A stretch of DNA of 64,000 nt from Octopus vulgaris. Lineage: Eukaryota. The notes beneath the pieces were generated by a model. That model ran no database searches. It was not told where the DNA came from and was given only the letters and a program-made list of their open reading frames with translations. Below, one piece after another: positions 14,270 through 51,208 of the stretch. The translations under genes and the position numbers were made by a program. Numbering within the stretch: the first letter of the stretch is position 1; each line of letters starts with the position of its first letter. Location: contig OX597814.1 in assembly GCA_951406725.2 (NCBI GenBank), forward strand, positions 199,826,001 to 199,890,000, given 5' to 3'.

Positions 14270-15000
14270 ATAATGATAATAATGAACTTTATTGTATACA
14301 GTACTTTCTTGTATACAGTACTCATCGGAAAAGGTTAAAAGAGGGGACAGAAAGGAGCCCTAAATCAAGCGAAGAAAATTAGCAATGAAAGCTTAAAGTA
14401 CATGCACATTGCACAAAATAAAACACAAAGAAAAGAAAAATAAACAATAAAAGTTATATAAAAAAGAAAAAGATGCCTAGGCATGTCAGGAATAACGCTG
14501 ATGAATTTCAGGAAACAGGAGGAAATTTTTGAAGGATGCAGTGTCCTAATACTAGCAATTTATTCCATGCTTTAGCAATTCTGAGTGTGAAAAAATGTTT
14601 CTGAAATTCATGGGTGCAGCTCAGGCCTCCGTGCCGGTGGCACGTAAAAAGCGCCATCCGATTGTGGCCGTTTGCCAGCCTCTCCTGGCACCTGTGCCGG
14701 AGGCAGGTAAAATGTACCCACTACACTCACGGAGTGGTTGGCGTTAGGAAGGGCATCCAGCTGTAGAAACACTGCCAGATCAGACTGGCTTCTGGCTTCC
14801 CAGGCCCCAGTTGAACCGTCCAACCCATGCTAGCATGGAAAGTGGACGCTAAACGATGATGAACGATGATAAGCATGTTCGTGAGTGGTAGAGGTACTGG
14901 ATTCAAAAAGGTGGTCAAACTTGTTCTTAGAAAGATGACAGATAAACTTGTGGGCTTCTATCAGGTCAACCACTAAATGCTGCATTAATGCCTTCAGAAG
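14270..15000 (-). mobile_element. Diverged CR1 3' fragment interrupted by a family C copy (+, 14625-14870)
   Basis: CR1-like TTCCATGCTTTAGCAATTCTGAGTGTGAAAAAATGTTTCTGAA resumes after the family C (GAT)n tail. Confidence 0.7.
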
Positions 15001-16542: not shown

Positions 16543-17317
16543 TGTGTACAGTGCTCAGGTGCACTACAACTCATCTAAAGTGTATATATAATCAGGTGTA
16601 GTTTCGGTGGATTTCGGAAAGCATGAGGGCCTTAAAAGATGCAGTGTCATGGCAGTCAACAACTGACGCAGGCAGTTTATTCCATGCTTCAGCAACTCTG
16701 AGCGTGAAAAAATGTTTCCGAAAGTCATGGGAGCTGTATTGTTTTCTGACTTTGTAGGCATGTCCACGTGTGTTAGACACATGGAGATCAAAAAGGTGTT
16801 CAGTGTTGTTGTTGGTGAGGTGGTTGATAACTTTGTGGGTGTTTACCAAGTCCGTCGCCAAACGCCGGAGCTTCAGTGAATCCATGCCCAGGGAAACAAG
16901 GCGCTCAGAATATGGTAGGTGTCTGATGGAGGGTATGCGTTTGGTTGCACGTCTCTGGACAGATTCCAGGAGGTCAATGTTCTGTGCAAGATAGGGGTTC
17001 CAAACTGATGATGCGAATTCCAAGTGTGGTCGTACCATAGCTGTATACAGTTTTAAATAGATGGCTGGAGAGTGGCTAACAAAAGACCTGCTGAGTGATG
17101 CCAAGACACCCTCGGCCTTCCTGACAATCTTAGAGATATGCTTTGACCAACGCAAATCACTGCTGACAGTGATGCCTAGGTCACGCTCACAAGAGGATTT
17201 CTTGATATCAGTGTTGTGGAGGGAGTATGTGGACGCAGGGTTTTTTCTCCCAAAATGCATGGTGGTACACTTGTCCACAGCCAGTTTCAGTTGCCAGTCT
17301 GTGATCCATTGCTGCAT

Positions 17318-17377
<60 letters not shown>

Positions 17378-17490
17378 TCTAATATAGGATAAAATCTTTC
17401 GAAAAAAATTCCATCAATGGCGAGCAAATTAAAAAATACCTTTAAAAGTTAAATTTATAAACAACTTATAAATTGCCTTTATTTATAAGT

Positions 17491-35391: not shown

Positions 35392-39146
<3,755 letters not shown>

Positions 39147-43856: not shown

Positions 43857-44184
43857 ATCATCATCATCATCGTTTAACGTCCGCTTTCCATGCTAGCATG
43901 GGTTGGACGAATGACTGAGCGCTGGCGAACCAGATAGCTGCACCAGGCTCCAATCTTGATTTGATGGAGTTTCTACAGCTGGATGCCCTTCCTAACACCA
44001 ACCACTCTGAGAGTGTAGTGGGTGCTTTTACATGCCACCCACACGGGGGCCAGTCACACGGTACTGGCAATGACCTCGCTCGAATCTTTTTACACATGCC
44101 ACCAGCACAGGTGCCAGTAAGGCGATGTTGGTAACGATCACGCTCGAATGGTGCCCTTTTACGTGCCACTGGCATGGAAGCCAG
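43857..44184 (-). mobile_element. Family C element (subfamily with AACGATCACGCTCGAATGG repeats)
   Basis: (CAT)n-CGTTTAACGTCCGCTTTCCATGCTAGCATGG terminus. Confidence 0.82.
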
Positions 44185-44590
44185 GGATATGTAATTAATT
44201 TAATTTAATCAAATTAATTTAATCGTTCTGCCATGAATTTACATGTTGATATTGCTGTTTGAAATGCATGTAATTAAAATTCTTTCAAATTTTAACATCT
44301 TCTCTTCTCCATTTTTAACAAATTTGTTGAGTTCTATGGGATACCTTTCCATAAATTCACATAACACACCATACACAAGTATTATTTTCATATTTGCAAA
44401 CTTACGCCAGTAAGCTACCAGCAAAATATGAAGAATCTTTCTTAGAAATCGCTTTTTTGGAACCCTTCAAAGTAAAGGATGAAATATAATTCAACCTTTT
44501 CACATATATGTGTGTGTGTGTGCAGATTTGTATGTTTTATGTATGTATTCTCATACATATAGGTGTATATCTAGACATGTTCATATATAT

Positions 44591-45032
44591 TTAAATAATA
44601 AACTTCAGGAAATTTTTACAGATTTGTACAGTTCCAGTGATGGATTGGATCTGCAGTCTTCGAAATAGCTTTCACATTTCTGGTTTTGAGAATCCTAATT
44701 TCTCAAGATTGGTATTTAAGCGGTGTGTTTCATATCCCAGTGCCCCGATAATTACAAGTATAAACCTGAACTTGTAATTTGGGTACAGTAACTGCGAACT
44801 TCAGCTTTATGTTAACATTCGCTGTGCAGCTAATTTCCACAACTGTACACAGTTTCTCTTCTCTATCCCAAATCATTATATCAGGTCCGTTGTGCTTACA
44901 TTTTATTGAGGTCTTCACTGGTGCATTCCACCAGTATTCCTTTTTATTATGAGTGGCTATGGCTTCTGCCATATTGTGGGTTCTTATTTCTTTGTTCTTG
45001 GGATTATCCTTCTGACAGATTTCATTATAGAG
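44591..45032 (-). mobile_element. R4/Dong-like non-LTR retrotransposon 3' fragment (restriction-like endonuclease domain)
   Basis: EYWWNAPVKTSIKCKHNGPDIMIWDREEKLCTVVEISC (cf. HNRPD...EIS.P) then, after a deletion, YKFRFILVIIGALG...LQIQSITGTVQICKNFLKF; flanked by TA/TG microsatellite. Confidence 0.8.
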
Positions 45033-45749
45033 TATATAGATGTATGTATGTATGCATTTGTGTGTCTGTGTGTGTTTGTTTTGTATGTTTGTTTGTTTGT
45101 TTGTCTTTATGTCTGTGTTTCTACCCCATCATGACTGGATAACCTGTGTTGGTGTGATAACATCCTTGTAACTTAGCACTTCAGTAAAAGAGATTGATAG
45201 AATAAGTAAAGGGCTTAAAAAAAAAATAAGCACTAGGTTCAATTCATTCAATTAAAATTCTTCGGAGTGGTGCCCCAGCCTGGCCACAGTCTAATAACTG
45301 AAACAAGTAAAAGATAAAAGCTGTGGTGAACAAATTACAATTGTTGACAAAGTAGTTTCCATGGAAACAAATGCCAAATAAAACTTAGTTGGTAAAGAAA
45401 GGAAAATTGATTAGAGCTTGGATCTAAAGTGGTTTCAATAATGCTCGACCGGAATTATATGGATCTCAATGATGAACATATTTAAAGTAGCAATATGCAT
45501 TTGGTAAGGATCGTGACAAGAATGGAAGAGACGAAGCAAAGAATTATCACACAATCAAAAGAATTATCAATTAAACAACTCAATTAAGAATTTCATAGAA
45601 CTGGATTGAAAGCAGACGATAATGGATGTAAAGTACTGCCATGTCAGAAAATGATTTGAAAATGCATTTAACTTCAGTGTCATGCACCAAGAGAAGAAGA
45701 AGAAAAAAATGCAATGAACGGACATGTTACTAGATTTTAAAATACTAAG

Positions 45750-46195: not shown

Positions 46196-47359
46196 ATTAA
46201 TAAATAAAACATATGCATATATACATACATATGTGTACGTACCTACCTCTACAAGTATATATACACGCATATATGGGTACAGGACACCAAAAAAACGTTG
46301 AACACAATGAGAAACGAAAACATAACAACAAAACCAAGGAACTGGACATTTTTCTTAAACAACGAAAAAAATAGAGTACAGGACAAATAACACAAGGAAA
46401 ATTTCCCTTCTTCAGTCGCCATGGTTTCATGTGCATGTATATATATATATATATATATGCCAATATAAAAGTACTAATAAAAACAGTTAAGGTAGAGTTT
46501 TCGGATTTTGGTTTTTGCATATGCTAATGCAAGTTAATAAATTTGATTGGTCTGCAGACATCAAGATACTAAACTGAAGAAAATGAACAAAAAACAGAAA
46601 CGGTGCGGCTTGTATTTTTTTTGGAAGGGCACAGCAATGTTAAGAGGTTAATAATAGACATTTAGAGCCGTGGAGATTAAGTGCAATCAGCAAATCAATG
46701 CAAACACCGAATCCTTGTAATCAGTGCAATCAATAAAGCAGTGAACCATGAAGCCGATGCACTCGCTGCAGTCGGTAAAATCATTTCAATCGCTGCAACC
46801 AATGCAATCACTGAAGAATGTCAATCAAATGGAGGATTTTTATATTGGATGGAATTAAGATTTCTGCAGATTATTGGAACAGCTCTGTTCTAGACATGAG
46901 CAGCATCATATAGGAGATGTATTGGTTGTATATAGGGAGCTGTTCCCTTTCATTAAAGAAGCCTGTTGAACTCAGAATCAAAACGTTTTGGGAGCTTGAA
47001 TGGAGATCTTTCAATGTTGGTGTGGTAACTTTGGTCTCCTTAATTCTTCGGTAAGAATCACTCATCTGAAGATAGAATTCGTGAGGTAATGTAGCAAAAG
47101 GATTAGTTTGGCATCAGTTTGTAAAATTAGAAGAGCAGTGATTCATCTTCTAGTCTCTTCTAGCAGTCTTGATATTAAGATAATCATGTGCTAGTACACC
47201 AGACAAAATTTTAACCCATGCCAGCATGGACAACGGACGTTAATTGATAATGATGATGATGGTGGTGGTGATGAATTCATCCAGTTCTATATGTAAGAGA
47301 TGAGGAATTATGTACATTATTTACATTTGATGGATATTTGTCCTCTTTTGTTTGTTGTT

Positions 47360-47405
47360 AACACAACGTTTCGGCTGATAAAGCCTCCAGCCTTTATCAG
47401 GTGTC
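47360..47405 (-). ncRNA. Type I minimal hammerhead ribozyme motif (G8 to A variant, probably inactive)
   Basis: GACAC-CTGATAA-A-GGCTGG-loop-TCAGCC-GAAA-CGTT-GTGTT; stems I and II pair; palindromic ACGT stem III. Confidence 0.65.
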
Positions 47406-47664
47406 TTGGGGAAATTTTGAACTTGGGTTCTCATTCCTAAGGTATTTTTCGATGTTGTTGTTGTTATTATTATTATTGTTATTATTATTATTATTATTAT
47501 TCAGGTAACAGCCTGGAATCGAACTCGGAATCTTGGAGTTAGTAACCCACGCTCTTAATCCCAATATTCTGAGTTCAATTCCAGGCAGCGTCCTAAATAA
47601 TAATGATAATAATAATATCAAAAAATACCTTAGGAATGAGAACTCAGGTTCGAAATTTCCCCAA

Positions 47665-47710
47665 GACACCTGCTGAAGGCTGGAAGGTATACCATCCAAA
47701 ACGTTGTGTT
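47665..47710 (+). ncRNA. Type I minimal hammerhead ribozyme motif (decayed)
   Basis: GACAC-CTGCTGA-A-GGCTGG-loop-CCATCC-AAAA-CGTT-GTGTT; core mutations differ from those in the left arm. Confidence 0.55.
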
Positions 47711-47975
47711 AACAACAAACAAGATGAGGACAAATAATGATTTCATCCATCTTTACATTCTGAGTTCAAATTATACTGAGGTCAACTTTGACTTTCATCC
47801 TTTCAGGGTCAATGAAATATGTACCAACTAACATCACTTCCCCCAAAACTTCAGACCTTGTGCCTATAGAAGAAAAGATATGAAGACAATCATGCAAATG
47901 AGTTTCATCTTTCTAAAGACATGTCTTATGAAATTATTTTTTTTCCTTTCATGACACTGTTTATAAAAATTTGAC

Positions 47976-49972: not shown

Positions 49973-50345
49973 CATCATCATCATCATCATCATCGTTTAA
50001 CGTCTGTTCTCCATGCTAGCATGGGTTGGACGGTTTGACCGGGGATCTGGGAAGCCAGAAGGCTGCACCAGGCTCCGGTCTTATCTGGCAATGTTTCTAC
50101 AGCTGGATGCCCTTCCTAACGCCAATCACTCCGTGAGTGTAGTGGGTGCTTTTTACGTGCCACCTGCACTGGTGCCAGGCGAGGCTGGCATCAGCCACGG
50201 TCGGATTGGTGCATTTTACGTGCCACCGGCACGGAAGCCAGTCGAGGCGGCACTGGCTTTGGCCACGATTCGGATGGTGCTTTTTACGTGCCACCGACAC
50301 GGAAGCCAGTCGAGGTGGCACTGGCATCAGCCACTATTCGGATAG
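49973..50345 (-). mobile_element. Family C element
   Basis: (CAT)n terminus and three ~62-bp internal repeats. Confidence 0.85.
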
Positions 50346-51208
50346 TGCTTTAATATAAGAATAATTTATTACAGTTTATTGCTGCCAGGATTTTAAAAAA
50401 TATTTTAGACTTTAAAAGCTATTGGAATATCAAACACATTTTATGTTCATCTGTACCTTACATTTTAATCTATCAATTATCCCATCATTTTCAGGTGTTT
50501 TCTTTTTCATGTACATTTTACACAAAAAGCCTAGTCTTCTATAAAAAGCAACAACAAAAAAAACAGTTTTTGAAAATTCCCTAACTTTACACAGTGTGCA
50601 ATATATCACGCTTATTAAAGAACAATAATTTATTTGACTGGTTGATTGGTTGGTTGGCCATAGTTCTGAGTGATTAGTTTTATCACTATTATTATCATTG
50701 TATGTCTTCACAGCTAATTTATATTTGACTGGTAAAGATTATTCTAAATTAGAAAAATGACAAATGATAATATTGAGTGTGAACTCATATAGATTGCTCA
50801 TACGCATTCTGTTATTACTAAAATATCTTTTAAAATATTGTTAAATTTGATACCAGTTCAAATATGCTTGAGATGTATTCAAACTCATAAGAAAGCAATT
50901 TACTGTATTTTGTCATGGAGAAAAGATTCTTGCTGCAGACAAATAGATGTCAGATTGTAGCACCCCTCCATTCCAAAGGTTAATGCTGAAGAGGCGATGA
51001 CTACTCTGTAATGCATGCATCTATTAATCTTGGTAGGAGGTTCTTTGAACTGACTTGCTGTGTTAACACCTATTTGTCTACATCAAGAATTTTTCTCCAT
51101 AACAAAACACAGTGGATGACTTTCTTAGAGGTTTGCACTTGTAATCTATATTTTATTATGGCCAGGCTGCTGATTAGTTCAACCAGTTACAGTATATTGA
51201 CTGGAAAA

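What the first reader, a model, noticed from the sequence alone, without database searches (positions are those of the whole stretch)
47282..47736. Palindromic element combining back-to-back tRNA-like promoters with terminal hammerhead ribozymes
Seen: a ~400-bp inverted repeat. Reading outward from the centre, each arm has a tRNA-like segment (B-box GAGTTCRATTCC; A-box-like TTAAGAGCG on the left arm), (AAT)n, then ACAC-CTGANGA-like core, stem II GGCTGG/YCAGCC, GAAA-CGTT-GTGT. The two cores carry different lesions (G8A on the left; A6C and G12A on the right), so their consensus is a canonical CUGAUGA/GAAA hammerhead. Known: such minimal type I hammerheads with a palindromic stem III typify Penelope-like elements and cleave as dimers, whereas SINEs normally end in LINE-derived tails. 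Inference: a Pol III-driven, ribozyme-terminated non-autonomous element mobilised by Penelope machinery, arranged so both strands give the same RNA, which could dimerise in trans. I am not aware of this combination being characterised, but cannot check.
Basis: partly seen in the sequence, partly recalled or inferred. Interest (0 to 1): 0.8.

Follow-up and report, generated by a model that had tools for sequence, protein, structure and literature searches.

The report
tRNA-headed Penelope-type hammerhead repeat
This is a dead, head-to-head double insertion of a very abundant repeat, likely from an octopus, that joins a tRNA-like start to a minimal hammerhead-ribozyme motif; its ends carry the marks of Penelope-type jumping genes, so it was likely pasted in by a Penelope enzyme rather than by the LINE enzymes that textbook SINEs borrow.

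Summary
The palindrome is real: one 455-bp insertion (47282-47736) with an 11-13-bp target duplication. It belongs to a high-copy family seen in DNA runs of four species labels, likely octopuses.

Three parts of the reading fail. The true A-box is missing from both arms, so this locus is not two promoters. The ribozyme is internal: copies run 30-85 nt past its cut site. The junction is rare, and an inverted arm with a one-sided tail is the published Penelope (PLE) insertion footprint. A Pol III promoter plus hammerhead is also known (schistosome Sm-alpha).

What I did not find in print (8 searches; Repbase and Dfam not checkable) is a tRNA head fused to a Penelope-type terminal repeat. Best reading: Pol III-started RNA copied by a PLE enzyme. 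I could not tie the repeat to a coding element: four protein searches found no RT. The scan reported this family many times on other DNA of the same genome, and several unreviewed notes claim that link.

The parts
47271..47281 (+). Target-site duplication, left copy (11 bp; 13 bp if the 2 bases shared with the element end are counted)
   Evidence: chance 55 of 20,000
47282..47558 (-). Left arm: longer copy of the repeat, 5'-truncated just after the A-box
47282..47334 (-). One-sided 3' extension (tail); recurrent family ends with unrelated flanks at 47307, 47308 and 47313; longest pieces start at 47282-47283
   Evidence: tables 7 and 8
47361..47404 (-). Minimal type I hammerhead motif, left; core 47400-47394 with G8A; predicted cut between 47365 and 47364
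47336..47434 (-). ATG (47434) and open frame through the hammerhead; a 1-nt loss near 47346 shifts it; candidate start of a PLE ORF (unproven)
   Evidence: table 4, 52
47450..47502 (-). Internal (AAT)n/(AAC)n run, left arm
   Evidence: D6
47503..47558 (-). tRNA-like head of the left arm (3' side of D-arm, anticodon arm, T-arm); A-box lost
47515..47526 (-). B-box, left
   Evidence: consensus recalled
47542..47555 (.). 14-nt unpaired spacer between the arms; the join falls on a 5-nt microhomology of the family sequence
   Evidence: rows 47537, 47559, loose ends at 47558
47556..47736 (+). Right arm: shorter inverted copy, starts at the anticodon loop, no A-box, no tail
47571..47582 (+). B-box, right
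   Evidence: consensus recalled
47595..47618 (+). Internal (AAT)n run, right arm
47636..47734 (+). ATG and 33 open codons through the hammerhead to the end of the arm
47666..47709 (+). Minimal type I hammerhead motif, right; A6C, G12A, stem II mismatch; predicted cut between 47705 and 47706
47737..47747 (+). Target-site duplication, right copy; also the start of an older, unrelated repeat fragment that was the target

Best explanation
This is a single, now inactive insertion of two head-to-head copies of an abundant tRNA-headed, hammerhead-bearing repeat, likely transcribed by RNA polymerase III and likely pasted in by a Penelope-type reverse transcriptase-endonuclease. Steps: (1, inferred) Pol III starts at the first base of the tRNA-like head and reads through the AAT run, the ATG and the hammerhead; neither sense strand has a T4 stop (shown). 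(2, shown from the copy ends) The template is uncut RNA, because copies keep 30-85 nt beyond the ribozyme site. (3, inferred from anole PAc) The PLE protein binds this 3' part, cuts both target strands 11-13 nt apart and starts cDNA inside the RNA at preferred sites, which gives long and short 3' ends. (4, inferred) Both target strands prime a copy and the two cDNA ends join by microhomology, giving the inverted arm and one-sided tail; fold-back of one cDNA, or a later central deletion, would give the same junction. (5, shown) Here the join removed both A-boxes, and later mutations broke both cores. The part from the ATG onward is likely the terminal repeat (pLTR) and first codons of a Penelope/Poseidon-type element; I lean about 60:40 to the tRNA head being part of that coding element's own repeat, mainly on unreviewed notes that I could not test.
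For: One event: target duplication around the whole palindrome. High copy: 19,253, 17,330 and 14,276 contigs laid on the left arm in three DNA runs of three species labels, head also in a fourth. Canonical minimal core in the family, with the extra base after position 9, G10.1-C11.1 and palindromic 15.2/16.2 that PMC4209133 lists for PLE hammerheads. Family A-box and tRNA 5' arm, followed in the majority letters by their own reverse complement (279, 252, 184 contigs and 489 reads, agreement 0.60-0.76). Recurrent 3' ends 122-129 and about 152-154 nt after the ATG with unrelated AT-rich flanks; in PAc the ORF starts in the hammerhead, RT starts internally 111-118 nt into the ORF, both strands are cut and extended, and uncut RNA is the substrate (PMC11167929). 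Inverted 5'-truncated copy plus one-sided 30-40-bp tail is the PLE footprint (PMC8557442), with 8-10-bp duplications in Adineta (PMC3846280). Junctions vary among copies (table 5).
Against: No RT or GIY-YIG protein carrying the repeat's peptide was found: 1 hit of 1 candidate, 15 hits of up to 413 aa with no RT or GIY-YIG family in 17 proteins scanned, 3 host proteins of 3,682 candidates, 4 short peptides of 158. The open frame alone is weak: 449 of 2,539 ATGs in the window give 33 or more codons, 195 give 50. No pile-up of RNA read ends at the tRNA start or the ribozyme site (table 6; unstranded cDNA libraries, 6% read, poorly suited). The right arm ends 21-28 nt short of the common short ends, and its extension difference (53 nt) exceeds the usual 30-40. 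Rfam and ARAGORN recognise neither motif. Pol III use and cleavage are untested.
Confidence: 0.72

Rival explanations
1. One reading: a purpose-built palindromic element with two outward Pol III promoters whose identical RNAs end at the ribozyme and dimerise in trans.
For: Many family copies appear to fold back at the tRNA 5' end, so head-to-head copies with two full heads probably exist (only 30 letters visible). Stem III is the palindromic ACGU that needs a partner (PMC4209133).
Against: Both A-boxes and both cores are broken here. This junction is rare: summed depth in X1 falls from 31,935 at 47557-59 to 254 at 47572-74. Other joints exist (47536/47558, 47526/47555). Copies run far beyond the cut site. 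Opposite-strand hammerhead pairs 100-700 bp apart are already described as PLE remnants (PMC4209133).
Confidence: 0.07
2. The repeat is only the pLTR of a Pol II-transcribed PLE into which a tRNA-SINE head was once captured; the head is passive and the short copies are ordinary 5'-truncated PLE insertions.
For: PLE insertions are typically heavily truncated, and 5' palindromes of 18-38 bp are described in Adineta pLTRs, which could explain the fold-back without a Pol III start. No RNA start site seen.
Against: Majority letters beyond the head turn back exactly at the tRNA first base instead of continuing into a shared upstream sequence. A- and B-box are intact in the family, and T4 runs are absent on both sense strands.
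Confidence: 0.15
3. An ordinary LINE-mobilised tRNA SINE with a chance hammerhead look-alike, doubled by twin priming or by two insertions.
For: tRNA head, target duplication of LINE-like length, and several SINE-like repeats in the same window. No PLE protein link found.
Against: The simple repeat is internal, not a 3' tail. All core positions, stems I and II and the PLE-specific extra base are present in the family. Ends are recurrent internal sites. One duplication encloses both arms.
Confidence: 0.04
4. A MITE or foldback DNA transposon with long terminal inverted repeats.
For: Long inverted repeat flanked by a duplication.
Against: Arms are unequal at both ends, family 3' ends vary between two zones, junctions vary, and the content is tRNA plus hammerhead.
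Confidence: 0.02

Closest known systems
Penelope/Poseidon EN+ PLE terminal repeats (anole PAc, PMC11167929 parts 1-2 of 4; Adineta Pen2/Pen2a, PMC3846280 passages; PMC8557442 passages; PMC4209133 parts 1-2 of 4)
   Same: Minimal type I hammerhead with the extra base after position 9; an ATG near the hammerhead and 3' ends 100-155 nt into the frame; inverted 5'-truncated arm, one-sided tail, target duplication; uncut RNA as template.
   Different: The repeat starts with a tRNA-like head with A- and B-box, where Adineta Pen2a has a putative TATA/Inr promoter. The ATG lies 34 nt before the core rather than inside stem II. No RT-EN ORF shown here.
Schistosoma Sm-alpha / Sj-alpha SINE-like elements (second-hand: PMC6765202 and PMC8490949 passages; the original paper was not held)
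   Same: Pol III promoter joined to a type I hammerhead in a short, high-copy, non-coding repeat.
   Different: Sm-alpha occurs in tandem and is cut out of multimers by an active canonical ribozyme. This family has the minimal PLE core, inserts as unequal inverted arms and keeps sequence on both sides of the cut site.
Animal non-LTR retrozymes (PMC7229834 passages; bioRxiv 10.64898/2026.07.22.740005 part 1 of 5 and passages)
   Same: Non-coding type I hammerhead repeats proposed to derive from PLE pLTRs and to use PLE enzymes.
   Different: Defined as head-to-tail tandems yielding circular RNA. The bioRxiv text has no occurrence of tRNA, polymerase III or octopus. This locus is head-to-head, not tandem.
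tRNA-derived SINEs and TRIMp3 (Helenus, Ajax, Cassandra; PMC10886601 passages)
   Same: Small-RNA-derived head as presumed Pol III promoter on a unit moved by another retroelement class. Helenus is the LTR-class precedent for a tRNA sequence inside a terminal repeat.
   Different: SINEs depend on LINEs and TRIMp3 on LTR elements; that paper has no occurrence of Penelope and expects autonomous partners to use Pol II.

Membership tests
PLE-type minimal type I hammerhead | CUGANGA and GAAA core with stems I and II | tested here: met
   Met in family majority letters and arm layout; broken in both copies at this locus.
PLE-type minimal type I hammerhead | Extra base between 9 and 10.1, G10.1-C11.1 pair, palindromic 15.2/16.2, no stem III loop | tested here: met
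   against PMC4209133
PLE-type minimal type I hammerhead | Self-cleavage (dimeric or protein-assisted) | not testable with these tools
   No read-end pile-up in one unstranded RNA run; PAc reads also show none.
EN+ Penelope-like element | Single ORF with telomerase-like RT and GIY-YIG endonuclease linked to the pLTR | tested here: inconclusive
   No such ORF among stop-free frames of 110 aa or more in the window, read by eye; none linked; no genome held. Earlier notes claim it; unchecked.
EN+ Penelope-like element | Inverted 5'-truncated copy at the 5' end and one-sided tail | tested here: met
   extension 53 nt here, 25-31 nt between the common family ends
EN+ Penelope-like element | Short target-site duplication | tested here: met
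   11-13 bp
tRNA-derived SINE (SINE2) | tRNA-like head with A- and B-box | tested here: met
   Family: (box consensus recalled). This locus: B-boxes only.
tRNA-derived SINE (SINE2) | 3' end matching a partner LINE or a poly(A)/simple-repeat tail | tested here: not met
   The AAT run is internal and 3' ends are non-repetitive recurrent sites; a match to a LINE 3' end was not searched.
tRNA-derived SINE (SINE2) | Transcription by Pol III | not testable with these tools
   Only indirect: no T4 on sense strands; 5' boundary at the tRNA first base.
Non-LTR retrozyme / Sm-alpha | Head-to-tail tandem units cut at the ribozyme to unit length | tested here: not met
   Not met at this locus: head-to-head, ends beyond the cut site. 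Tandem copies elsewhere were not surveyed.

The most novel reading that the evidence does not exclude
A protein-coding Penelope retrotransposon has built a tRNA-derived Pol III promoter into its own terminal repeat, so every copy of the repeat is a ready-made SINE that the element's own enzyme amplifies by the thousands across octopus genomes; in the boldest form the coding RNA itself starts from that Pol III promoter.
Probability: 0.4. Interest if true: 0.72.

Novelty: new variant of a known kind. Interest (0 to 1): 0.5.

Why it matters
SINEs are defined as LINE parasites. A tRNA-headed element copied by Penelope machinery would add a third Pol III/retroelement pairing beside SINE-LINE and TRIMp3-LTR. 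If the head sits in the coding element's own repeat, it would also show a direct route by which SINE-like families are born. Thousands of short copies with duplications, two end zones and variable junctions are a ready data set for the open question of how PLEs make inverted arms and tails. This particular locus is a fossil and has no sign of function.

Tried and rejected
No whole genome is held, so no genome-wide copy count or search for a full-length element.

A 24-letter motif shared by both arms had 0 exact matches in metagenome, viral and prokaryote collections.

No second copy lies in the window. A strict core pattern gave 1 match, 0.40 expected by chance, and a relaxed descriptor 1 unrelated hit at 14498.

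Rfam returned only sub-threshold hairpin and microsatellite matches.

Protein searches for an RT-linked ORF failed. ESM Atlas gave only scores of 0.82 or less. The peptide and DNA motifs are absent from the text-held supplement of PMC8557442.

Minimum-energy folds of either arm do not give the hammerhead (left -10.6 vs -14.0, right -2.9 vs -9.2 kcal/mol), as expected for broken minimal cores; not used as evidence.

RNA-only letter differences (47414, 47376 in X23) were not taken as editing: non-editing changes are also RNA-enriched (47536 in X24), and no DNA of the same individual was laid.

Summed contig depth was not converted to a copy number. The empty site was not tested.

Full report
Observation. 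The window is AT-rich, microsatellite-laden animal DNA. Named protein hits to the element's peptide come from Octopus sinensis and O. bimaculoides, so the source is likely an octopus. The inverted repeat is real: 47335-47736 aligns to its own reverse complement. The bodies match at 103 of 115 aligned bases and the heads at 30 of 39, and the score is 171 against at most 26 in 200 shuffles. Rfam and ARAGORN recognise neither the ribozyme nor the tRNA part.

One insertion event. An 11-bp direct repeat with 1 mismatch (13 bp with two shared bases) flanks the whole palindrome at 47271-47281 and 47737-47747. Such a match arose in 55 of 20,000 random non-microsatellite placements and 660 of 20,000 when microsatellites were allowed. 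The right copy is the start of an older repeat fragment with 18 other matches in the window, so the duplicated bases are target DNA. The arms are unequal: the left has 53 more bases at its 3' end and 17 more at its 5' end.

The family. No second copy lies in the window and no genome is held. Of 24 runs listed, 16 hold 0.31-0.83 of the sampled words, under five species labels. I laid 6 of the 24. On the left arm, 19,253, 17,330 and 14,276 contigs were laid in three DNA runs, and 7,359 of 12.9 million RNA reads. This shows a family of at least thousands of variants; it is not a copy number. At the left G8 position 94%, 97% and 97% of contig depth and 2,756 of 2,883 reads show the canonical base. 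A6 has no listed variant, and G12 differs in 6-9% of DNA depth and in 896 of 3,432 RNA reads. Loose ends with unrelated AT-rich flanks recur at 47307, 47308 and 47313 in the DNA runs, and the longest pieces begin at 47282-47283. The tool skipped the simple repeat beside that end, so the long end is less well shown. An O. bimaculoides peptide (P0003) follows the left arm to the same point.

The head. Laying 47503-47574 showed that the family leaves the window sequence after 47558 (279, 252 and 184 contigs, 489 reads; agreement 0.60-0.76). The 30 letters shown contain, on the element's strand, an 11-base A-box (TGGCGTAGTGG; consensus recalled), the 5' acceptor arm of a tRNA, and then the reverse complement of that arm. 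So the family has a complete type 2 promoter layout, and many copies turn back at the tRNA's first base. This may be an insertion junction or a fixed 5' palindrome like the 18-38-bp ones in Adineta pLTRs; 30 letters cannot tell. The junction here is rare: depth in X1 drops from 31,935 to 254 across it, with a few bridging contigs in all three DNA runs. Other opposite-strand joints occur at 47536/47558 and 47526/47555. With family letters at 47537 and 47559 the join falls on a 5-base microhomology around a 14-base spacer.

The ribozyme is internal. The predicted cut lies 70 nt after an ATG (47434 left, 47636 right), while copies end at +101 (right arm), +122 to +129 and +152 to +154. Inserted copies therefore came from uncut RNA. 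No pile-up of read ends was seen in either RNA run, but both are unstranded cDNA libraries of which about 6% was read.

Comparison with print. PMC4209133 (parts 1-2 of 4) defines the PLE minimal hammerhead by the extra base after position 9, G10.1-C11.1 and palindromic 15.2/16.2, all present here. It also already reports pairs on opposite strands 100-700 bp apart, and reads most scattered motifs as truncated PLEs. PMC8557442 (passages, and searches of supplement file 1) gives the inverted 5'-truncated copy and one-sided 30-40-bp tail as the PLE footprint. PMC3846280 (passages) adds 8-10-bp duplications and a pLTR that holds the first 12-22 codons. PMC11167929 (parts 1-2 of 4) shows that the anole PAc protein cuts and extends both strands, starts cDNA inside the RNA 111-118 nt into the ORF, and does not need ribozyme cleavage. 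Pol III plus hammerhead is known from schistosome Sm-alpha (PMC6765202 and PMC8490949, passages). Animal retrozymes are proposed as PLE derivatives (bioRxiv 10.64898/2026.07.22.740005, part 1 of 5 and passages; PMC7229834, passages). tRNA-bearing terminal repeats are known for LTR elements (PMC10886601, passages). PMC6962438 and PMC4758252 (passages) do not describe this family. The Lunse and Ferbeyre papers were not held. Eight searches listed no paper on a tRNA-headed PLE repeat or an octopus hammerhead SINE. Most listed papers were seen only as listings, Repbase and Dfam could not be searched, and bioRxiv supplements are closed.

Coding partner. The frame from the ATG is open for 33 codons in the right arm, and across a 1-base loss to the end of the left arm, as in PLE repeats. 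That alone is weak, since 449 of 2,539 window ATGs reach 33 codons and 195 reach 50. Four protein searches found no RT or GIY-YIG protein with this start (Pfam on 17 proteins). They returned short peptides, tandem relatives and three host gene models. Repeat ORFs are probably under-represented in these collections (my inference), so this is not a refutation. Earlier unreviewed notes on other DNA of this genome report the same head at the 3' end of a coding Penelope element, while others read it as a separate SINE. I used them as leads only.

Mechanism. Most likely, Pol III starts at the tRNA head (inferred; no T4 run on either sense strand). A PLE enzyme then binds the 3' part and primes cDNA from both strands of an AT-rich target at internal sites (inferred from PAc). 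The two cDNA ends join by microhomology, which explains the duplication, the head-to-head layout and the unequal ends together. Fold-back of one cDNA, or a later deletion in a full palindrome, gives the same junction and is not excluded. The ribozyme is likely inherited from the PLE repeat and not needed for insertion. The roughly 10% divergence between the arm bodies and the broken cores mark this copy as old and inactive.

Verdict. The palindrome is the ordinary footprint of Penelope-type insertion, not a designed bidirectional unit. The family is the interesting object: a tRNA head on a Penelope-type repeat, a new variant of known kinds. Interest 0.5; 0.72 if the head proves to be the promoter inside a coding element's own repeat (probability about 0.4).

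Noticed in passing
P0001/P0019/P0021, P0022, P0023: Three annotated octopus gene models carry the element's peptide at or near their N-terminus: a cysteine-rich membrane protein of O. sinensis (3 isoforms), a 'dystrobrevin beta isoform X1' and a WD40-type protein of O. bimaculoides. Copies may serve as first exons or ATG donors, or these may be annotation artefacts; the O. vulgaris partial model P0020 lacks the peptide.
   Followed up: partly
P0002, P0004-P0008, P0010, P0012, P0016: Peptides with repeated units of about 42 residues resembling the hammerhead-spanning frame point to a sister family of head-to-tail repeats of about 125 nt without the upstream part, retrozyme-like. Source checked for P0005 only (unnamed).
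   Followed up: no
window 47740-47830; also 25597, 2182, 54425, 54655, 58024, 15187 and others: The target of the insertion is a 5'-truncated piece of another abundant SINE-like repeat with 18 further matches in the window.
   Followed up: partly
window 16592-17413 (-): 273-codon stop-free frame that looks by eye like the C-terminal part of a LINE reverse transcriptase; not scanned.
   Followed up: no
window 44730-45128 (-): Frame with a motif resembling a restriction-like LINE endonuclease (recalled); not scanned.
   Followed up: no
window 44020-44190 and 50124-50350: Tandem 63-68-bp repeat family (D5 and D7-D10); similar translated text recurs near 37000-38200, 40100, 52000, 55300 and 61500.
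   Followed up: no
run X23, places 47314, 47392, 47414: Large loose-end groups (514, 211 and 218 reads, agreement 0.68-0.94) suggest that a few divergent copies dominate the family's RNA signal.
   Followed up: no
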